Of a DNA stretch of 64,000 nucleotides, positions 29,742 through 36,349 are shown piece after piece; positions within the stretch are counted from its first letter, which is position 1; each line of letters starts with the position of its first letter. The notes below the pieces were generated by a model that was not told where the DNA came from, searched no databases, and saw nothing but the letters and a program-made list of their open reading frames with translations. This stretch comes from Prevotella sp. Its GTDB lineage: Bacteria > Bacillota > Clostridia > Christensenellales > UBA1242. The position numbers and the translations under genes were made by a program. Location of the stretch: NCBI GenBank assembly GCA_023666145.1, contig JAMPCO010000003.1:3027-67026 (forward strand), in the 5' to 3' direction.

Positions 29742-29750
29742 TGCTATAAT
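29742..29750 (+). promoter_or_regulatory. Extended -10 promoter of the ABC-F gene (leaderless-type)
   Basis: TGcTATAAT (29742-29750), 7 nt, then ATG at 29758. The track start ATG at 29749 lies inside the -10 hexamer and is therefore unlikely. Confidence 0.6.
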
Positions 29751-29757
29751 GGCAAGT

Positions 29758-31305
29758 ATGATTCAAGTAGTCAATGTATCTTTGCAATATGGCAAACGGG
29801 TTTTGTTCAAAGATGTTAATTTGAAATTTTTGCCAGGGGAATGTTACGGCATTATCGGTGCCAACGGGGCGGGCAAATCAACGTTTTTAAAAATTTTATC
29901 GGGCGAAATTACCCCGAATAAAGGGGAAGTGGTGGTTGGTAAAAACCAACGGATTTCGACCCTGGCGCAAAACCAAAATGCGTTTGATGATTTATCCGTG
30001 ATTAATACTGTTATTGGCGGGCACCAACGTTTGGCAGAAATCGTCGCGTTAAAAGAAAAATATTATGCGTTGCCCACCATGACCGAAGCGCAGGGTAATG
30101 AATTGGGCGCGTTGGAAGCCGAATTTGCCGAATTGGACGGTTGGGATGCCGACAGCAACGCGCGGATCATGTTGTCGGGTTTGGGCGTCAGCGAAGAATT
30201 TCACGACCAACAAATGAAAGACTTGGATGCGAAACTGAAAGTTAAAGTTTTGTTGGCGCGGGCTTTATTTGGTAATCCCGATATTTTAATTTTGGACGAA
30301 CCAACCAATAATTTGGATTTGGCGGGTACGCATTGGTTGGAAGAATTTTTGTTGGAATTTAAAAACATTACCATTATTGTGTCGCACAATCGTCATTTTT
30401 TGAACCAAGTTTGTACGCACATTTGCGATGTTGACTTTAACCAAATCAATATGTTTGTGGGGAACTACGATTTTTGGTACGAAACCAGCCAATTATTGTT
30501 GAAGCAACAAAAGGAAGCCAACAAGAAAGCCGAAGCGCGTGCACAAGAATTGAAAGACTTTATTGCACGGTTTTCCGCGAACGCCAGTAAATCACGCCAA
30601 GCCACCAGTCGTAAAAAAGAATTGGAAAAATTGACGATTGAAGACATCAAACCGTCATCGCGTAAATATCCGTACATCAATTTCGAATGTGCGCGTGAAC
30701 CAGGTAACGAAATTTTGGCGGTGGAAAATTTGACCGTCAACGGCTATTTCCGCAATGTCTCTTTCCGCGTTAACAAGGGGGAAAAAATCGCTTTTTTAAC
30801 CGATAAAAGTGTGCGCATGGACAAATTGTTTAACTGTATCATGGGCATTGAAAAAGCCGACAGCGGTACCGTCACCATCGGCAAGACCATTACGACTTCG
30901 TATTTACCCGCGGACTACCGCAGTTATTTCGAAGGGGTCAATTTGAATTTGTTAGATTGGTTGAAACAGTATTCCCAAGACACTAACGAAACCTTTATCC
31001 GCAGTTGGTTAGGTCGGATGTTGTTTTCGGGGGAAGAAGCCTTAAAAAAAGCCAGTGTTTTGTCGGGTGGGGAAAGAGTGCGTTGTATGTTAGCGAAAAC
31101 CATGTTGGAACAAGGTAATCTGTTGATTTTGAACGAACCCACCAACCATTTGGATTTGGAAAGCATTACCGCCTTAAACCAAGGGATGATGCGTAGTAAG
31201 GCCGTAATGTTGTTTTACACCAGTGATGAAGAAATTATCGATACGGTGGCAACCCGCGTGATTGAAATTACTGCCGACAAAATCCACGACCGCGTTTTAG
31301 TTTAA
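29758..31305 (+). CDS. ABC-F family ATPase (YbiT/YkpA-like) with one degenerate ATP site
   Basis: Two ABC domains joined by a charged linker. NBD1 has GANGAGKST, ILILDEPTNNLD and SHNRHFLN. NBD2 has signature LSGGE, but its Walker A position reads FLTDKSVRMDKL and its Walker B reads LLILNEP. Confidence 0.92.
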   Translation: MIQVVNVSLQYGKRVLFKDVNLKFLPGECYGIIGANGAGKSTFLKILSGEITPNKGEVVVGKNQRISTLAQNQNAFDDLSVINTVIGGHQRLAEIVALKEKYYALPTMTEAQGNELGALEAEFAELDGWDADSNARIMLSGLGVSEEFHDQQMKDLDAKLKVKVLLARALFGNPDILILDEPTNNLDLAGTHWLEEFLLEFKNITIIVSHNRHFLNQVCTHICDVDFNQINMFVGNYDFWYETSQLLLKQQKEANKKAEARAQELKDFIARFSANASKSRQATSRKKELEKLTIEDIKPSSRKYPYINFECAREPGNEILAVENLTVNGYFRNVSFRVNKGEKIAFLTDKSVRMDKLFNCIMGIEKADSGTVTIGKTITTSYLPADYRSYFEGVNLNLLDWLKQYSQDTNETFIRSWLGRMLFSGEEALKKASVLSGGERVRCMLAKTMLEQGNLLILNEPTNHLDLESITALNQGMMRSKAVMLFYTSDEEIIDTVATRVIEITADKIHDRVLV

Positions 31306-31817
31306 TTACGTTCGTTGGGATTATGGCGGGGACTAACTCTCGGCATCGGTTGCGTGTCGTGCCGTTTTTCCGAAATCGGCGCACGATGGTTTCCAGGTTT
31401 TCTGTCATGGTTACGGGGCGCACCGTCGTATAACGCGGGGATAGGTTCTTCCGCATGGAAACGGGGACGTTCTTGGTCGTCGTTTGGGTTTGGTTCTGCT
31501 GTTTGGTCGGGATAAATCTCCAAAGTACGCGGTTGGTCATCCACTGGTTGATAGTTTGCTACGTGGGCGACCACAGGGGTATTTTGCCTTTCCAATTGAT
31601 GGATTTGGCTCTTTAATTGGCGATTATGTAACGCCGTGGCACCCAACAGGCTGCTGGTAACGGCTACGGCCAAAGCCATAACCGACATCGTAATTCCAGT
31701 CAAAATTTTGTGGCGCTGTCGTTGACGATGTTCATCCGCCACGGCGCTGTTGGAATTTTCCACCACGACGTTTCCTTGGTAATTTCTTTGGTGCGATTGA
31801 GTTGTAAATGATTGCAT
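31302..31817 (-). CDS. Hypothetical single-pass membrane protein, Pro/Arg/His-rich C-terminal region
   Basis: 171 aa. GGAGGTG Shine-Dalgarno lies 7 nt upstream of the ATG at 31817. One TM helix (ILTGITMSVMALAVAVTSSLLGA), followed by a short coiled segment and a disordered tail. A sigmaG-like promoter lies upstream. Confidence 0.7.
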   Translation of the reverse strand: MQSFTTQSHQRNYQGNVVVENSNSAVADEHRQRQRHKILTGITMSVMALAVAVTSSLLGATALHNRQLKSQIHQLERQNTPVVAHVANYQPVDDQPRTLEIYPDQTAEPNPNDDQERPRFHAEEPIPALYDGAPRNHDRKPGNHRAPISEKRHDTQPMPRVSPRHNPNERN

Positions 31818-31870: not shown

Positions 31871-32134
31871 TTAGTAAATTTTACAGCAGCAATCGTTGCA
31901 ACCGTGGTCTTGTTCCGGTTTTTCACAAGGCGACGGTTCTTTTTTCTCTTGGCAGACACATTCAAAGCGTTTTTCGCGACATTCGCATTTTTCTTCACGA
32001 TGTTCGCAGCGGTCTTCACATTTGTTTTCGCACTTGCATTCACAGCGGTTAACTGGCTTGCAGGTGTTGTGACAACGGCAGCAACGGAAAACCCAGCAGA
32101 ACAGGTCGCCAACAGTTGGACATTGATTACACAT
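31871..32134 (-). CDS. Cysteine-rich small protein (87 aa, 21 Cys)
   Basis: Perfect AGGAGG Shine-Dalgarno 8 nt upstream of the ATG at 32134. The sequence is MCNQCPTVGDLFCWVFRCCRCHNTCKPVNRCECKCENKCEDRCEHREEKCECREKRFECVCQEKKEPSPCEKPEQDHGCNDCCCKIY. Two other long ORFs overlapping here have no Shine-Dalgarno. Confidence 0.8.
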   Translation of the reverse strand: MCNQCPTVGDLFCWVFRCCRCHNTCKPVNRCECKCENKCEDRCEHREEKCECREKRFECVCQEKKEPSPCEKPEQDHGCNDCCCKIY

Positions 32135-32192: not shown

Positions 32193-32978
32193 TTAGGCGA
32201 CGGTGAGCGCGTGTTGGCGGCTGTGTTCCGCAATGACAGCCGTGGTGATATGGTAGGCCAGAATTTGTTGGTAAGTCGTGGATTGCAGCAATTGGCGTTC
32301 GTTGGCATTGGTCAAAAATCCGCATTCAATTAAAACGGCGGGGCAAGGCGAGTGTTCGACTAAATTGAAATCGGTGGGTTTAGCGGTTTTGTAAATTGGT
32401 AAGCCGCTGTCGTTAAATTGGTTTTGAATGGCGGTGGCGTAGGCTTGACTGCCCGTGGTTTCGTTGGCGTAAAAACATTGTAAACCACTGACCGAAGTTA
32501 ACGGGTAGGTATTTTGGTGAATTGAAATCACCAGGTCGGGGTTAAGACTGCGAATCTTTGCGCGACGTTTAGCCATGTCTTCCACTTTTTTATTACGGGC
32601 GTAAGGCGAATTCAGACTCTCACTGTCAACACGGGTCAAGGAAACTGCGCAACCGTGGTTACGTAATTCTTGCGCCAAAACTTGGACAATTTGTAAATTT
32701 AATCCCGCCTCACTGACCCCGTCAACGCAGGCACCGTTGTCGAAACCACCGTGTCCCGCGTCCAAAACCACATGAAACTGCTCTGGGGCAATGACCGCGG
32801 TGGAACCTTGCAACGCATCAATCCACAGCCCTACGCCCAGCACAACAAAACACAAACTAATTGCTAAGTAACGGATTTCTATGTATATTAAAATTGCATG
32901 CGTAAAATGCGGGAATACCACTTCCAAAGGGGGTTGGCCAAAGATTTGCTTGTGGCCACTTTCTTTTTTAGTTTGCAA
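32193..32978 (-). CDS. cwlD: Germination-specific N-acetylmuramoyl-L-alanine amidase CwlD (maximal ORF; true start unresolved, probably 32855-32894)
   Basis: Amidase_3 motifs are present: VVLDAGHGGFDNGA, VISIHQN, AVLIECGFLTN. An N-terminal signal-anchor (RYLAISLCFVVLGVGLWI) matches CwlD. The track start (TTG at 32978) would overlap the divergent ABC gene and its promoter. Confidence 0.85.
   Translation of the reverse strand: MQTKKESGHKQIFGQPPLEVVFPHFTHAILIYIEIRYLAISLCFVVLGVGLWIDALQGSTAVIAPEQFHVVLDAGHGGFDNGACVDGVSEAGLNLQIVQVLAQELRNHGCAVSLTRVDSESLNSPYARNKKVEDMAKRRAKIRSLNPDLVISIHQNTYPLTSVSGLQCFYANETTGSQAYATAIQNQFNDSGLPIYKTAKPTDFNLVEHSPCPAVLIECGFLTNANERQLLQSTTYQQILAYHITTAVIAEHSRQHALTVA
32861..32889 (+). 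promoter_or_regulatory. sigmaA-type promoter of the ABC half-transporter pair (leaderless-type)
   Basis: TTGCTA (32861-32866), 17 nt spacer, TATATT (32884-32889), 8 nt, then ATG (32898). It lies inside the 5' end of the cwlD reading frame on the other strand. Confidence 0.55.
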
Positions 32979-34643
32979 GAAATTTTGAATACGGTTTACC
33001 CGCTGGTCTTAAAAAATTTGGTCACCGAAAAGATTGAAAACGACACGGGGATGTTGCCCAGCATGGGAAACTTCTTAATCAGTGCGGGCATCGTGTTAGG
33101 ATTGTTGGTGATCATTTTCTTTGTTTCGTTTTATGCGCGGAATCGGGTTAGTGTCTATGGTGCCAAATGCCGTCGCAACGCCCGCAATCTGCTTTATGAT
33201 AAAATGACGCGTGTGCCGACCAATGTGTTGTACGAATACGGTACCAGCAAATTCTTGTCGTCGATGATGGAAGACACGACTTGGGTGAAATACCGTCACG
33301 AACAGTTTTTGCAAGCCGCGATTTATTTTGTGGTGACGATCTTAGGTAGTTGTGTGTTAATCATGACCTTGTCGCCGATTTATGTGCTGTTTATTGTGGC
33401 CGCGGTGGCGGTCGAAATCGGGATTTTAATGGTCCACCGTGCCATCATCAGCAAACGAATGCCCGCGGCGGTAGACGCATACGACAAATCCTTTGTGGCG
33501 ACACGCGAAAGCATCGCGGGCGCACGCGATATTCGTATCTTGGGTAAACAGTCCGAACGCTCCGCTACCGCCGCCCGTCAAAACAAGGCTTTAGCCCGCG
33601 AAGTTTTTGACATCGACCAATCCAAACACATTTTTGAATGCAGCAACAACATCGTTTTCGGCATTGTGACGTTTGGCATTATTTTATTCGGGGCTTTATC
33701 TTACGATGGTGTGCATTTGGCGGAACAGTTGGTAATTATCAACACCATTTTGCAATACATCACCCTGTGTACGACGGCGACGCTCAATATCTTCAAATTG
33801 CTGATTAACCCGATGACGCGTGGGCGGGTCGCCTACGCCAGAATTGATCAGTTCATGCATTTACCCGAAGAAGACATCGATCAGGGACTAACCAAATTAG
33901 ACACCGAATTTGGCAGTTCTTTGGTTTTGTATCAAGTCAGCCATCGTTTCTGGAATGGGCGTAAAACCATTGAGGATTTGTCGATGGAATTACAAAAAGG
34001 CAAAATGGTGGCTTTTTGTGGGGAAGTCGGTGCGGGGCGCACAACGTTAATCAAGATTTTATTACGTTATTTTGACCCGACGACAGGCATGGTTTTGGTG
34101 AACGGCATCAATATCAAAGACTTTAACAAACGTTTTTATCGTGCCAAAATTATCTCGTACTGTCCCGCTTATCCCGAATTTTTGTCTGGCACAGTGCGGG
34201 AAAATATCCGCCTTTTCAACCCTGAGGTTACCGACGAACAAATTTTAGCCGCGTTTAACGAAATCGGGGCGGCTAATCTAGCCATTTTACCGTCGTTTTT
34301 GGATACACCATTGTCGGTACGCGCACAGTTGCCACAAGATGTCAAAAGTTTAATCAATGTGGTGCGTTGTATTTTGAAACCAGCGGAGTTTTATGTTTTT
34401 GACGGCAGTTTCATCAATTTATCCAACGATGTGGTGCAAAGTACTTTACACAAATTGCGTGCGGAAAACAAAGCCTGTGTGTTCACAACCATCAATCCTT
34501 TAATTTGCGAAAGTGCCGACGAAGTGTTTTTTGCACAGAGCGACCACCATTATGTGAAAGGAACGCACACTTCATTGTTGGCGGAAAATCAAGAATACGC
34601 GGCTTTCTTCATGAAAGCCGAGCAATTGGAGGCGCAAGGATGA
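32898..34643 (+). CDS. ABC exporter half-transporter (TMD-NBD) with degenerate NBD
   Basis: 581 aa with a 6-TM type-I exporter domain and an NBD. The NBD has Walker A GEVGAGRTT (K to R), signature LSVRAQ, Walker B FYVFDGS and H-loop TTINPL. Confidence 0.88.
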   Translation: MRKMREYHFQRGLAKDLLVATFFFSLQEILNTVYPLVLKNLVTEKIENDTGMLPSMGNFLISAGIVLGLLVIIFFVSFYARNRVSVYGAKCRRNARNLLYDKMTRVPTNVLYEYGTSKFLSSMMEDTTWVKYRHEQFLQAAIYFVVTILGSCVLIMTLSPIYVLFIVAAVAVEIGILMVHRAIISKRMPAAVDAYDKSFVATRESIAGARDIRILGKQSERSATAARQNKALAREVFDIDQSKHIFECSNNIVFGIVTFGIILFGALSYDGVHLAEQLVIINTILQYITLCTTATLNIFKLLINPMTRGRVAYARIDQFMHLPEEDIDQGLTKLDTEFGSSLVLYQVSHRFWNGRKTIEDLSMELQKGKMVAFCGEVGAGRTTLIKILLRYFDPTTGMVLVNGINIKDFNKRFYRAKIISYCPAYPEFLSGTVRENIRLFNPEVTDEQILAAFNEIGAANLAILPSFLDTPLSVRAQLPQDVKSLINVVRCILKPAEFYVFDGSFINLSNDVVQSTLHKLRAENKACVFTTINPLICESADEVFFAQSDHHYVKGTHTSLLAENQEYAAFFMKAEQLEAQG

Positions 34644-36349
34644 AAATGCCCCACAAGAAGTCGGTCTTTCTGCGCGCCATGGCTTATTTCAAGCCGTTGC
34701 GTTGGCGCATTTTAATTGTGATTCTGTGCGGGATTGTGGGGATTGCTTTGTATTCTTTTATGCCAGGTTTGACGGCCGATGCGTTAAACGAATTTGAAAC
34801 TTGGGGCTTGAACCACGATTTATCGGTCGTTTTGCAACCGCTGATTTTGTACTTGATTTTGTGTCTTCTGTCGGAAACGTTCGCGCTGATTTGCAAATGC
34901 ATCATCATCAATTACGAATACAAAGTAACCTTGGGTATTATGGACGATGCCCGCCAAAAATTGGACGTGGTGCCGTTGTCCTTTATTGAGCAATTTGAAA
35001 TCAGCAAAACCACGCACCAAATTGCGGTCGGGCGTCGGTTATTGCAAGAATGTTTATCCATGATTTATCAAATTTGCCGTACCATTTTCTTCTTCGTTTT
35101 GAACATTGTGATGATGTTATCTTTGAACGGTACTTTAAGTCTCTTGGTGATTATTTCTTTGCCCGTGACCTTAATTATTGCGCAAATTGTCGTCAACAAA
35201 ACCCAAAAATATTACACGCGCAAAGAAGAAGCGAACGGGCGGATTTATGACTTTACCGAACAGCACGCGACTTTGCACGGCTTTTTCCAAGAAAACGGGA
35301 TTGTTGGTGAAGACGAATTTCAATCGATTAACGGGTACAAAGGCATTGTCGGCGTGGATACCGTGGTTGGTTTGAATGAAACTTACATCAGTTTTCTTTC
35401 TAATTTTATGTATTTGGCGATTACGGTGGTTTTCGGTATCTTGGCGATCAATGGGGCTTTGTCTATGGCCGACTTCGCCATTTTGCCCGCTTTCTTATTG
35501 TATAGTTCACGCTTCCTGTCCAACACTAAAATCATTACGACGGCCTCGAACATCATCCAACCAACCGAAAGTTACGCCAAAGTCTTTTTCGGGATTTTGG
35601 ATTGTCCCGATGACGTGACCGCGGACGAAGATGTCAACATCAAAAAAATTGACGGGAGCATCGTTTTTGACCATGTATCAACCGACAAAGTCAAAGACAT
35701 TACGTTTGAAATTCCCTTTGGTAGTAGTGTCGCCTTTTTGGAAGAAGACAATGTTACGGGTTCCGCGATTGTGAATTTAATGACGAAATTGGAATTGCCC
35801 AAGAGCGGCCAAATCAAAGTGAACAACATTGATTTGGCACGAATCCGCAGTAAGAAATTCTACGAACGCGTAGGGATGTGCTTCGACCGTCCGTTCTTGA
35901 TTGACGCAACGATTGCCGAAAACATTATGTACGGGGTGGGAAAAACTTTGCCCGAAAACGTGATTCAAGCCACCCAAATGTTTGGGTTTGACCAATTTAT
36001 CCGTTTGCTGCCACACGGCTACAACACCCGTTTAACCGAAAATACGGTTCTTTTAACCAACGCGGAACAACAAGCCGTCAATTTGTCGCGAACAGTATTG
36101 CACGCACCTGACTTATTGATTTTGAACCACGCTTTGAATTGTTTTGATACGGCAACCGAAAAAAAATGTAACGATGTGATTATTAACAAATTGAAAAACC
36201 GTACCCGTGTGTTCGTGACGACACAAATCAAAACGATTCAAAACGTTGACCGCATTTATGTTTGCAAAGGTGGGCGCATTGTCGAAACGGGTTCGCACGC
36301 CGAACTGATGGCGTTGCAAGGTGAATACTACCGCCGATACAAGAGTTAA
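34640..36349 (+). CDS. ABC exporter half-transporter (TMD-NBD) with strongly degenerate NBD
   Basis: The ATG at 34640 (ATGA overlap, GGAGG Shine-Dalgarno 7 nt upstream) gives MKMPHKKSVFLRAMAYFKPLRWRIL. The protein has 6 TM helices. In the NBD the Walker A position reads FLEEDNVTGSAI, the signature is LTNAE, Walker B is LLILNHA and the H-loop is TTQIKT. The C-terminal GSHAELMALQGEYYRRY is typical of the family. Confidence 0.88.
   Translation: MKMPHKKSVFLRAMAYFKPLRWRILIVILCGIVGIALYSFMPGLTADALNEFETWGLNHDLSVVLQPLILYLILCLLSETFALICKCIIINYEYKVTLGIMDDARQKLDVVPLSFIEQFEISKTTHQIAVGRRLLQECLSMIYQICRTIFFFVLNIVMMLSLNGTLSLLVIISLPVTLIIAQIVVNKTQKYYTRKEEANGRIYDFTEQHATLHGFFQENGIVGEDEFQSINGYKGIVGVDTVVGLNETYISFLSNFMYLAITVVFGILAINGALSMADFAILPAFLLYSSRFLSNTKIITTASNIIQPTESYAKVFFGILDCPDDVTADEDVNIKKIDGSIVFDHVSTDKVKDITFEIPFGSSVAFLEEDNVTGSAIVNLMTKLELPKSGQIKVNNIDLARIRSKKFYERVGMCFDRPFLIDATIAENIMYGVGKTLPENVIQATQMFGFDQFIRLLPHGYNTRLTENTVLLTNAEQQAVNLSRTVLHAPDLLILNHALNCFDTATEKKCNDVIINKLKNRTRVFVTTQIKTIQNVDRIYVCKGGRIVETGSHAELMALQGEYYRRYKS

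What the first reader, a model, noticed from the sequence alone, without database searches (positions are those of the whole stretch)
32898..36349. Heterodimeric ABC-exporter pair in which both composite ATP sites have lost their catalytic motifs
These are two translationally coupled half-transporters (ATGA overlap at 34640-34643), each with a 6-TM type-I exporter domain plus an NBD. ABC1 reads: Walker A GEVGAGRTT (Lys to Arg), Q-loop region CPAYPEFL (no Gln), signature LSVRAQ (not LSGGQ), Walker B FYVFDGS (catalytic Glu to Gly), H-loop TTINPL (His to Asn). ABC2 reads: Walker A position FLEEDNVTGSAI (no GxxGxGK[ST]), signature LTNAE, Walker B LLILNHA (Asp to Asn, Glu to His), H-loop TTQIKT (His to Gln). 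Characterised heterodimeric exporters with a degenerate site (the TM287/288, BmrCD and LmrCD type) keep one consensus site. Here neither composite site is intact. This is not general drift, because SecA, UvrB, RecN, AddA, MnmE, Cmk and V-ATPase A in the same window all keep canonical P-loops. The rest of the NBD fold is well conserved (for example the C-terminal GSHAELMALQGEYYRRY), and the reading frames are intact, which argues for a maintained function. That function would be non-hydrolytic: a nucleotide-sensing or ATP-independent membrane module. The pair sits divergently against cwlD and the cysteine-rich gene cluster, so a sporulation link is possible.
Basis: partly seen in the sequence, partly recalled or inferred. 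Interest (0 to 1): 0.78.

Follow-up and report, generated by a model that had tools for sequence, protein, structure and literature searches.

The report
ABC exporter pair without catalytic ATP sites
Two coupled genes encode an ABC-exporter-shaped membrane complex that lacks every residue needed to burn ATP at both sites yet is strongly conserved in uncultured gut Clostridia, so it probably does something other than ATP-driven pumping.

Summary
Window 32898-34643 (ABC1, 581 aa) and 34640-36349 (ABC2, 569 aa) overlap by ATGA. Each has a six-helix exporter domain plus an ABC ATPase domain, and both predicted folds match heterodimeric exporters such as TM287/288, TmrAB and MsRv1273c/72c.

Alignment to solved ABC proteins shows that both composite ATP sites lack a full catalytic set. 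ABC1 has Walker A Lys to Arg and no Q-loop Gln, catalytic Glu or H-loop His. ABC2 has an acidic EEDNVTGS stretch in place of the P-loop, a deleted A-loop, and Walker B Asn-His.

These are not decaying genes. About 55 cluster representatives of each protein and 17 species-level loci are intact, with the ATGA overlap in 14 of 17 and dN/dS of 0.02-0.07.

The two sites are not equally degraded. The ABC1 P-loop site, with ABC2's LTNAEQ, is more conserved than the domain average and carries the normal Lys in deeper relatives. The ABC2 site and all former catalytic positions are relaxed.

I infer a non-hydrolytic complex with at most one non-catalytic nucleotide pocket. A CwlD-like amidase gene is adjacent in several divergent lineages, which hints at a spore-cortex link. 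Function is untested. I rate it a new variant of a known kind.

The parts
32898..34643 (+). ABC1, a half-transporter of 581 aa: six long transmembrane helices plus a degenerate ATPase domain that keeps a P-loop scaffold.
   Evidence: ORF. Pfam ABC_membrane 53.7 bits and ABC_tran 53.2 bits. AlphaFold2 pLDDT 85. Foldseek TM-score 0.8 to TmrAB, TM287/288 and MsbA. dN/dS 0.03-0.07.
34640..36349 (+). ABC2, a half-transporter of 569 aa: six transmembrane helices plus an ATPase domain that has lost its P-loop and A-loop.
   Evidence: ORF. Pfam ABC_membrane 37.0 bits and ABC_tran 37.1 bits. AlphaFold2 pLDDT 79. Foldseek hits to MsRv1273c/72c chain B, TmrB, TM288 and EfrD. dN/dS 0.02-0.05.
34640..34643 (+). 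ATGA stop/start overlap between ABC1 and ABC2, consistent with translational coupling.
   Evidence: Sequence. The same 4-base overlap occurs in 14 of 17 orthologous loci.
33942..33962 (+). ABC1 A-loop region HRFWNGR. The aromatic Phe/Tyr sits at the adenine-stacking position and WNGR is nearly invariant.
   Evidence: Aligned to the canonical FSY. Mean entropy 0.30 against the domain mean of 0.81.
34020..34046 (+). ABC1 Walker A GEVGAGRTT. The glycine scaffold is invariant. Lys is replaced by Arg in this subclade, while Lys is retained in deeper orthologues.
   Evidence: An independent Lys-to-Arg change occurs in L027.
34158..34181 (+). ABC1 former Q-loop YCPAYPEF. Gln is replaced by Ala or Thr, and the replacement motif is itself conserved.
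   Evidence: Entropy 0.39.
34329..34346 (+). ABC1 signature column LPQDVK in place of LSGGQ[RK]. It faces ABC2's dead site and is variable.
   Evidence: Entropy 1.09.
34389..34409 (+). ABC1 Walker B FYVFDGS. Asp is kept and the catalytic Glu is replaced by Gly.
   Evidence: The family variants are DG, DR, DS and NR, never DE; outgroup ABC1 has NQ.
34482..34502 (+). ABC1 former H-loop FTTINPL. There is no His and the region is variable.
   Evidence: Entropy 1.33.
35675..35698 (+). ABC2 A-loop region VSTDKVKD. It has a 7-residue deletion and no aromatic residue.
35741..35767 (+). ABC2 pseudo-Walker A EEDNVTGSA. An acidic stretch replaces GxxGxGK[ST].
   Evidence: The family consensus is EEESGTGS[EA].
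35876..35899 (+). ABC2 former Q-loop MCFDRPFL. Gln is replaced by Asp here and by Glu throughout the wider clade.
36053..36070 (+). ABC2 signature column LTNAEQ in place of LSGGQ. It faces the ABC1 P-loop and is highly conserved.
   Evidence: Found in 42 of 55 representatives. Entropy 0.31.
36113..36133 (+). ABC2 Walker B LLILNHA. Asp is replaced by Asn, and the former catalytic Glu position is hypervariable.
   Evidence: Entropy 2.1 at the former Glu position.
36212..36232 (+). ABC2 former H-loop FVTTQIK. There is no His.
   Evidence: His is retained in the sister clade.
32861..32889 (+). Promoter-like TTGCTA-17-TATATT ending 8 nt before the ABC1 ATG. This is tentative. It lies inside a block conserved at all codon positions of the overlapping cwlD 5' end.
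   Evidence: Consensus scan, which by itself is no better than chance. The block AATTGCnAAnTAnCG...TATGTATATTAAAA is conserved in 10 loci.
32193..32927 (-). CwlD-like N-acetylmuramoyl-L-alanine amidase gene, head-to-head with ABC1. The start codon is uncertain (TTG at 32927 or GTG at 32921). It is a recurrent neighbour of the pair and a possible functional partner, which is not shown.
   Evidence: Best NCBIfam hit TIGR02883 spore_cwlD at 143.7 bits, below the cut-off of 221.6. Adjacent to ABC1 in every core locus that reaches upstream of ABC1 and in L014, L018, L026, L027/L028 and L031.

Best explanation
ABC1 and ABC2 form a heterodimeric ABC exporter-fold (type IV) membrane complex. It is expressed, is under strong purifying selection, and cannot hydrolyse ATP at either composite site.

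It descends from a lineage-specific clade of heterodimeric exporters. In that clade ABC1 was already the degenerate subunit, with a natural Asn-Gln or Asp-Gly Walker B and no Q-loop Gln or H-loop His. ABC2 carried the more canonical site. In the window's clade the ABC2 site was then lost completely: the P-loop became EEE-x-GTGS, the A-loop was deleted, and Walker B became Asn-x.

The remaining site is ABC1's A-loop aromatic residue, its GxxGxG[K/R][ST] loop and its Walker B strand, facing ABC2's LTNAEQ. This site is the best-conserved part of the ATPase domains. It most likely still binds a nucleotide, or another phosphate-bearing ligand, without turning it over.

The complex therefore does not act as a primary pump. 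It most likely works as a ligand-stabilised or ligand-gated membrane module, meaning a passive gate or facilitator, a scaffold or a regulator. Its ATPase-like domains would serve as a dimerisation and sensing unit.

Shown: the anatomy, the motif states, the selection, the predicted fold, the phylogenetic distribution and the gene neighbourhood.

Inferred: absence of hydrolysis, retention of nucleotide binding at the ABC1 site, and the non-pumping role.
For: - Motif columns are fixed by alignment to solved ABC proteins and canonical homologues.
- None of 53 ABC1 and 55 ABC2 cluster representatives has a Walker B Asp-Glu pair. None has an H-loop His apart from one distant outgroup ABC2, P0058.
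- All 17 loci examined lack internal stops, and 14 of 17 keep the ATGA overlap.
- dN/dS is 0.02-0.07, and the ATPase domains are at least as constrained as the transmembrane domains.
- The predicted folds match heterodimeric type IV exporters with TM-scores of about 0.6-0.85.
- Site asymmetry is clear from the entropy analysis. ABC1 A-loop is 0.30, Walker B 0.43 and the former Q-loop 0.39; ABC2 LTNAEQ is 0.31; the P-loop glycines are invariant. The domain means are 0.81 and 0.59. By contrast the ABC2 pseudo-P-loop is 0.78, the ABC1 signature 1.09, the two H-loops 1.33 and 1.09, and the former catalytic Glu positions 0.9 and 2.1.
- ABC1 Walker A is the canonical GxxGxGK[ST] in L012, L013, L014, L018 and L026 and keeps the Lys in the sister-clade loci L030-L033. 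Lys to Arg arose independently in the window's subclade and in L027.
- Sister-clade ABC2 proteins keep the P-loop Lys and H-loop His but have a very variable Walker B, which documents stepwise loss.
- There is experimental precedent that two degenerate sites abolish or strongly reduce transport: the CTS D606N mutant (PMC4652930) and TAP with two degenerate C-loops (PMC5277011).
Against: - There is no biochemical or expression data, and the organisms are uncultured.
- Nucleotide binding at the ABC1 site is inferred from conservation only. The Q-loop Gln that helps hold Mg2+ is missing. ABC2's LTNAEQ replaces both signature glycines with bulkier residues and ends in Glu, which could hinder closure around a triphosphate.
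- An Arg in place of the Walker A Lys may weaken binding.
- The heterodimer itself is inferred from the gene overlap and from homology. No multimer model could be built with these tools.
- Conserved 'neo-motifs' could serve protein-protein contacts rather than ligand binding.
Confidence: 0.55

Rival explanations
1. The ATPase-like domains bind no nucleotide at all. They are purely structural dimerisation and coupling domains. The transmembrane domains work as a secondary (ion-coupled) transporter, a uniporter or a scramblase. This is comparable to SbmA/BacA, which uses an ABC-exporter-like membrane fold without any ATPase domain.
For: - The window's ABC1 has Arg in place of the Walker A Lys, lacks the Q-loop Gln, and faces a non-glycine signature (LTNAEQ).
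- ABC2 has no P-loop or A-loop at all.
- The transmembrane domains are under purifying selection, with dN/dS of 0.04-0.07.
- That an exporter-like membrane fold can work without ATP (SbmA/BacA) is from my own knowledge and was not tested here.
Against: - The glycine scaffold GxxGxG plus a basic residue plus Ser/Thr, and the aromatic A-loop of ABC1, are among the most conserved positions. Lys is retained across the wider clade. That is hard to explain without a phosphate or nucleotide ligand.
- If the ATPase domains were only structural, loss or shortening would be expected in some lineages, and none was seen. The one exception is a C-terminal truncation of about 20 residues in L017 ABC1.
Confidence: 0.25
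2. The pair is still an ATP-driven exporter. It would hydrolyse ATP slowly through non-canonical residues, for example Walker B Asp502 of ABC1 with a substitute general base, or Arg acting in place of Lys.
For: - ABC1 in the window's clade keeps the Walker B Asp, a P-loop and an A-loop.
- The intracellular coupling-helix regions align with those of canonical exporters.
- A few sister-clade ABC2 proteins, such as P0195 and P0342, keep Lys, Asp-Glu and His. Hydrolysis may therefore exist elsewhere in the clade.
Against: - Five separate catalytic elements are missing or altered at each site. For the ABC1 site these are the Walker A Lys, the Q-loop Gln, the catalytic Glu, the H-loop His and the partner's signature.
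- The positions of the former catalytic Glu and H-loop His are among the most variable in the family. That is the opposite of what a substitute catalytic residue would show.
- Engineered two-degenerate-site transporters lose function.
Confidence: 0.1
3. The genes are decaying pseudogenes or annotation artefacts of a former multidrug exporter operon.
For: Pfam ABC_tran scores are low at 53 and 37 bits. The pair evolves faster than the neighbouring SecA and ABC-F genes: 75-81% identity against 89-95% in the same genome pairs.
Against: - Reading frames are intact in 17 loci spanning down to about 31-38% identity, and the start/stop overlap is conserved.
- dN/dS is 0.02-0.07.
- About 55 distinct 90%-identity clusters exist for each protein.
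- The replacement motifs are themselves conserved.
Confidence: 0.01

Closest known systems
Heterodimeric type IV (type I exporter) ABC transporters with one degenerate site: TM287/288, TmrAB, BmrCD, EfrCD, LmrCD, PatAB, MsRv1273c/72c
   Same: - Two adjacent genes for different half-transporters, each with a six-helix membrane domain and an ATPase domain.
- These are the best structural matches.
- The ABC2 membrane domain matches only the B chains of these heterodimers by sequence.
- One subunit (ABC1) carries a Walker A/B set that can probably bind but not hydrolyse nucleotide, like the degenerate site of these transporters.
   Different: - Those transporters keep one full consensus site that drives transport (review PMC7756269). 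Here that second site is destroyed: ABC2 has no P-loop, A-loop, Walker B Asp-Glu or H-loop His, and ABC1 has no LSGGQ.
- The retained degenerate site is itself further eroded, with no Q-loop Gln and Lys replaced by Arg in the window.
CFTR (ABCC7) and SUR1/2 (ABCC8/9), ABC proteins used as a gated channel or a channel regulator
   Same: An ABC exporter fold is used for something other than pumping. A non-catalytic site 1 holds ATP stably and acts as a hinge or sensor (PMC7756269).
   Different: CFTR and SUR keep a catalytically competent site 2, are single polypeptides with extra domains, and are eukaryotic. No homology beyond the general ABCB/ABCC level was found.
SbmA/BacA (and the related Rv1819c), an ABC-exporter-like membrane fold working without ATP hydrolysis
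   Same: This is precedent, from my own knowledge, that this membrane fold can work without ATP hydrolysis.
   Different: SbmA/BacA has no ATPase domain at all. Here both ATPase-like domains are retained and strongly conserved.
FtsEX and other partner-dependent activators of cell-wall amidases (EnvC, ActH-LytH, GerS-CwlD)
   Same: Amidase_3 enzymes such as CwlD and LytH commonly need a membrane-associated partner (PMC8496864; PMC9245657). FtsEX shows that an ABC-type complex can regulate peptidoglycan hydrolases (my own knowledge). The pair is adjacent to a CwlD-like gene in several divergent lineages.
   Different: FtsEX has a different (type VII) fold and needs ATP hydrolysis. GerS and ActH are unrelated proteins. 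No interaction evidence exists here, and the pair has only short extracellular loops.

Membership tests
ABC transporter, type IV / type I exporter fold (ABCB-like half-transporter) | N-terminal six-helix ABC_membrane domain (PF00664) | tested here: met
   ABC1 scores 53.7 bits and ABC2 37.0 bits against a cut-off of 28. The AlphaFold2 models show six long helices.
ABC transporter, type IV / type I exporter fold (ABCB-like half-transporter) | C-terminal ABC ATPase fold (PF00005) | tested here: met
   53.2 and 37.1 bits against a cut-off of 25. Foldseek TM-scores of about 0.6-0.85 to TM287/288, TmrAB and MsbA over the full length.
ABC transporter, type IV / type I exporter fold (ABCB-like half-transporter) | Walker A GxxGxGK[ST] | tested here: not met
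   ABC1 has GEVGAGRTT (Lys to Arg) and ABC2 has EEDNVTGSA. No [AG]xxxxGK[ST] match occurs in either protein.
ABC transporter, type IV / type I exporter fold (ABCB-like half-transporter) | Walker B hhhhDE with the catalytic Glu | tested here: not met
   ABC1 has FYVFDG and ABC2 has LLILNH. No Asp-Glu pair occurs in 108 family representatives.
ABC transporter, type IV / type I exporter fold (ABCB-like half-transporter) | Signature LSGGQ, Q-loop Gln and H-loop His | tested here: not met
   The signatures are LPQDV and LTNAE. The Q-loop Gln is Ala in ABC1 and Asp in ABC2. The H-loop His is Ile in ABC1 and Thr in ABC2.
Heterodimeric exporters with one degenerate and one consensus site (TM287/288 type) | Two different half-transporter genes, adjacent and co-expressed | tested here: met
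   ATGA overlap, conserved in 14 of 17 loci.
Heterodimeric exporters with one degenerate and one consensus site (TM287/288 type) | One non-catalytic but nucleotide-binding site | tested here: inconclusive
   The ABC1 P-loop scaffold and A-loop aromatic residue are conserved, and Lys is present in relatives. Binding itself cannot be tested with these tools.
Heterodimeric exporters with one degenerate and one consensus site (TM287/288 type) | One fully consensus, catalytic site | tested here: not met
   The ABC2 Walker A, Walker B and H-loop and the ABC1 signature are all non-consensus.
CFTR/SUR-type regulatory ABC proteins | ATP hydrolysis at site 2 that times gating or regulation | tested here: not met
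   No catalytic set is present at either site.
SbmA/BacA family | Exporter-like membrane domain without an ATPase domain | tested here: not met
   Both proteins carry a full-length ABC_tran domain.
CwlD (TIGR02883) for the neighbouring amidase gene | NCBIfam equivalog score at or above the cut-off | tested here: not met
   143.7 bits against a cut-off of 221.55. It is nevertheless the best hit by far and covers the full profile. I therefore call it 'CwlD-like'.

The most novel reading that the evidence does not exclude
The pair is a naturally ATPase-dead ABC exporter that has been repurposed as a nucleotide-sensing (or nucleotide-free) membrane partner of the spore-cortex amidase CwlD. Alternatively it could be a passive gate whose state reports cellular ATP during sporulation or germination.

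In this reading the acidic EEE-x-GTGS stretch of ABC2 replaces the ATP 'glue' at one site and holds the two ATPase-like domains together permanently. The ABC1 pocket would be the only ligand-responsive element. This would be the first ABC exporter-fold complex known to work with no catalytic site. It would also be a third, unrelated solution, after GerS and ActH, to the need of Amidase_3 enzymes for a partner.
Probability: 0.2. Interest if true: 0.85.

Novelty: new variant of a known kind. Interest (0 to 1): 0.62.

Why it matters
All characterised ABC exporters, including those with one degenerate site, are thought to need at least one catalytic ATP site. Engineering a second degenerate site abolishes or strongly reduces transport.

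This family has had no catalytic site across many species and yet remains under strong purifying selection. That makes it a natural experiment on two questions: what the exporter fold and the 'degenerate' nucleotide site can do on their own, and how an ATPase becomes a pseudo-ATPase step by step. The intermediate states are preserved in sister lineages.

If the CwlD link is real, it also bears on how spore-cortex amidases are controlled outside the model organisms.

Tried and rejected
- **Pseudogene or decay hypothesis.** Rejected by intact frames and dN/dS of 0.02-0.07.
- **Assigning ABC1 to the TM287-like chain and ABC2 to the TM288-like chain.** The ABC2 membrane domain matches only B chains. 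The ABC1 family profile, however, also scores TM288 above TM287, and the ABC1 membrane domain matches only 9x46_A. I therefore make no chain-orthology claim.
- **Sporulation-sigma promoter motifs upstream of either gene.** Only a sigma-70-like TTGCTA-17-TATATT was found. The scan as a whole is at chance level, with 6 found against 6.6 expected. I inspected the sequence by eye for sigma E, G and K motifs and found nothing convincing.
- **cwlD start at GTG 32843 with a 54-nt intergenic region.** Abandoned. The apparent ATG in relatives is out of frame, so the cwlD 5' end probably overlaps the ABC1 5' end.
- **Rfam scan of the whole window.** No hits.
- **Literature searches for naturally doubly-degenerate ABC exporters.** Nothing relevant was found in the held library. 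This is absence of evidence only.
- **Context of the most distant relatives.** L019, L020, L032 and L033 lack both the amidase and SecA genes, so the neighbourhood is not universal.

Full report
**1. What is there.**

The region holds two same-strand ORFs. ABC1 runs from 32898 to 34643 (581 aa). ABC2 runs from the ATG at 34640 to 36349 (569 aa). The stop of the first overlaps the start of the second in ATGA.

Both proteins pass the Pfam gathering thresholds for ABC_membrane and ABC_tran. The ATPase-domain scores are unusually low, at 53 and 37 bits. The NCBIfam hits are generic MsbA/CydC/HlyB-type exporters, all far below their cut-offs.

The AlphaFold2 models have pLDDT 85 for ABC1 and 79 for ABC2. 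Each shows six long transmembrane helices followed by an ABC ATPase fold. Foldseek against the PDB returns heterodimeric type IV exporters first: MsRv1273c/72c, TmrAB, TM287/288, EfrCD and IrtAB, and then MsbA. TM-scores are about 0.6-0.85.

**2. The motif columns.**

I used phmmer alignments to ABCB1 and ABCB19 and MAFFT alignments with canonical homologues.

| Motif | ABC1 | ABC2 |
|---|---|---|
| A-loop | aromatic Phe retained (HRFWNGR) | 7-residue deletion, no aromatic |
| Walker A | GEVGAGRTT (Lys to Arg) | EEDNVTGSA in place of GxxGxGKST |
| Q-loop Gln | Ala | Asp |
| Signature | LPQDV | LTNAE |
| Walker B | FYVFDG (Asp kept, Glu to Gly) | LLILNH |
| D-loop | INLS | not scored here |
| H-loop His | Ile | Thr |

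Two details need correcting:
- The ABC1 signature is LPQDV.

Neither composite site has a full catalytic set. Site 1 is the ABC1 Walker motifs plus the ABC2 signature. Site 2 is the ABC2 'Walker' positions plus the ABC1 signature.

Other P-loop proteins in the window have normal GxxxxGK[ST] motifs.

**3. The genes are not decaying.**

- Word-indexed searches of 5.8 billion proteins found about 55 cluster representatives for each protein, from 92% down to about 37-40% identity. Similarity then drops abruptly to generic ABC proteins at about 25%.
- One ABC1 hit is 100% identical. It comes from an NCBI MAG labelled 'Prevotella sp.'.
- A scan of one genome per GTDB species found 22 loci carrying the pair. 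They come from uncultured Clostridia/Eubacteriales MAGs from rumen, caecum and gut, one Christensenellaceae MAG, and two termite-gut Bacillota MAGs.
- In the 17 loci with both genes complete, there are no internal stops. The ATGA overlap is present in 14.
- Pairwise Nei-Gojobori dN/dS is 0.02-0.07 for pairs with unsaturated dS. The ATPase domains are at least as constrained as the membrane domains.
- Across 53 ABC1 and 55 ABC2 representatives, none has a Walker B Asp-Glu pair. None has an H-loop His, apart from one distant outgroup ABC2, P0058.

**4. The two sites are not equally dead.**

Column entropies within the family show that the parts of site 1 are better conserved than the ATPase-domain averages of 0.81 (ABC1) and 0.59 (ABC2):
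- ABC1 A-loop: 0.30
- ABC1 P-loop glycines: about 0
- ABC1 Walker B: 0.43
- ABC1 former Q-loop: 0.39
- ABC2 LTNAEQ: 0.31

The parts of site 2 and all former catalytic positions are relaxed:
- ABC2 pseudo-P-loop: 0.78
- ABC1 signature: 1.09
- ABC1 D-loop: 1.21
- H-loops: 1.33 and 1.09
- Former catalytic Glu positions: 0.9 and 2.1

ABC1's Walker A is the fully canonical GxxGxGK[ST] in the deeper orthologues L012, L013, L014, L018 and L026. The sister-clade loci L030-L033 also keep the Lys. The Lys-to-Arg change is confined to the window's subclade and arose a second time independently in L027.

Taken together, this argues that ABC1 still holds a phosphate-bearing ligand, most simply a nucleotide, without catalysis. 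ABC2's site has become ligand-free.

**5. Evolutionary setting.**

An exhaustive HMMER search of 1.84 billion cluster representatives found only about half a dozen representatives of the wider clade before generic ABCB proteins took over.

A further search seeded with one of these (P0195) revealed a sister clade of about 60 clusters in Christensenellaceae and 'Firmicutes' MAGs. In that sister clade:
- ABC2 keeps the P-loop Lys and the H-loop His.
- ABC2 always has Glu at the Q-loop position.
- ABC2 has a remarkably variable Walker B: Asp-Glu in a few, and otherwise Asn-Glu, His-Gln, Asp-Ala, Ser-Glu and others.
- ABC1 is uniformly GGxGSGK plus an A-loop Tyr plus a Walker B h-Y-h-F-N-Q-C, with no Q-loop Gln or H-loop His.

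The window's pair is therefore the end state of a lineage in which ABC1 was the degenerate subunit from the start and ABC2's site eroded stepwise. Intermediate forms such as GETEDMPER and GDNAGGQEK occur in L018, P0398 and P0399.

I tried to map ABC1 and ABC2 onto the A and B chains of solved heterodimers. The ABC2 membrane domain matches only B chains. ABC1 gives mixed signals. I make no orthology claim.

**6. Neighbourhood.**

In the window the order is:
- a YbiT-like ABC-F gene
- an unknown 171-aa ORF (31302-31817, minus strand)
- a cysteine-rich 87-aa ORF
- a CwlD-like amidase gene (minus strand, head-to-head with ABC1)
- ABC1
- ABC2
- SecA (convergent)
- a SpoIIE-like gene
- RecR

.

This order is conserved across the core clade and in L014 and L018.

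The amidase's best NCBIfam hit is spore_cwlD at 144-178 bits. This is below the equivalog cut-off of 221.6.

Adjacency of the amidase gene to ABC1 recurs in distant relatives with different arrangements:
- divergent in L026, which has glycogen genes downstream
- co-directional with an extra small gene in L027/L028
- co-directional with a 5-nt gap in L031

It is absent in L019, L020, L030, L032 and L033.

Amidase_3 enzymes often need a membrane-associated partner. Examples are GerS for C. difficile CwlD and ActH for LytH (PMC8496864; PMC9245657). A functional link is therefore plausible. However, the adjacency could also be inherited synteny. I put the probability of a real link at about 0.2-0.3.

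**7. Mechanism.**

Established ABC enzymology (review PMC7756269, and my own knowledge) requires all of the following for hydrolysis:
- the Walker A Lys
- the Q-loop Gln
- the Walker B Asp-Glu pair
- the H-loop His
- the partner's LSGGQ

Engineered transporters with two degenerate sites lose or nearly lose function (CTS D606N, PMC4652930; TAP with two degenerate C-loops, PMC5277011).

I therefore infer that the complex does not hydrolyse ATP and is not a primary pump. My best-supported model is an exporter-fold heterodimer with these properties:
- Its ATPase-like domains act as a dimerisation and sensing unit.
- It has one non-catalytic ligand pocket, at ABC1.
- It has one ligand-free interface, at ABC2, possibly held together by the acidic stretch that replaces the P-loop.

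What the membrane domains do is unknown. They could form a gate or facilitator, a scaffold, or an amidase partner.

Rivals, in decreasing order of probability:
- purely structural ATPase-like domains with a secondary-transport membrane domain
- residual non-canonical ATPase activity
- pseudogenes, which I consider refuted

**8. Novelty and verdict.**

Four searches of the held literature found no report of a naturally doubly-degenerate ABC exporter. This is not proof of absence.

The system belongs to the ABC type IV exporter fold but fails every catalytic-motif criterion. It also fails the 'one consensus site' criterion of the TM287/288 class. I rate it a new variant of a known kind.

Interest is moderate to high. 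The case is clean, conserved and evolutionarily traceable. Its function is still unknown and its hosts are uncultured.

Noticed in passing
window 29749-31305 (+): The neighbouring YbiT-like ABC-F protein (5.7e-132 to E. coli YbiT, PDB 9njf) has a dead second ATP site. Its NBD2 Walker A is LTDKSVRMDK in place of GTNGVGKST, its Walker B is LLILNEP (Asp to Asn), and its H-loop His is replaced by Ser. NBD1 and the NBD2 signature LSGGE are canonical. The state is conserved in relatives as far as L018.
   Followed up: partly
window 32843-32927 (both strands): The cwlD-like ORF has no in-frame ATG near its 5' end. The candidate starts are TTG at 32927 and GTG at 32921, so its 5' end probably overlaps the ABC1 5' end head-to-head by about 24-30 nt. 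The block AATTGCnAAnTAnCG...TATGTATATTAAAA just upstream of the ABC1 ATG is conserved at all codon positions in 10 loci. It contains a TTGCTA-17-TATATT promoter-like pair ending 8 nt before the ATG, with no Shine-Dalgarno sequence, which may indicate a leaderless or near-leaderless ABC1 mRNA.
   Followed up: partly
window 31871-32134 (-): An 87-aa cysteine-rich ORF (MCNQCPTVGDLFCWVFRCCRCHNTCK...) has no NCBIfam hit. It is conserved at about 45-62% identity in the same position in about ten related loci. The adjacent 171-aa ORF (31302-31817, minus strand) also has no family hit.
   Followed up: partly
whole window; P0084, L001, L014: The 100%-identical ABC1 protein and two related contigs are deposited as MAGs labelled 'Prevotella sp.'. 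The contigs nevertheless carry SpoIIE-like and CwlD-like genes and are syntenic with Clostridia and Christensenellaceae MAGs. The taxonomic label is probably a binning or labelling error.
   Followed up: no
L017:4260-5942: ABC1 in this MAG ends about 20 residues early (560 aa), and a 58-nt gap replaces the ATGA overlap. This could be an assembly error or a real C-terminal truncation. It is the only irregular copy among the 17 loci.
   Followed up: no
L006:7689-12132 and L007:7704-8952: Insertions of about 4.4 kb (L006) and 1.2 kb (L007) lie between ABC2 and SecA in these relatives. Their content was not examined.
   Followed up: no
window 1-64000: No Rfam family reaches its gathering score anywhere in the 64-kb window, so no riboswitch, tRNA-like or rRNA hit was reported.
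   Followed up: yes
L027:1405-3087 (-): In the termite-gut relative, a third ABC_membrane+ABC_tran gene (560 aa) lies just upstream of the amidase-ABC1-ABC2 cluster on the opposite strand. Its motif state was not examined.
   Followed up: no
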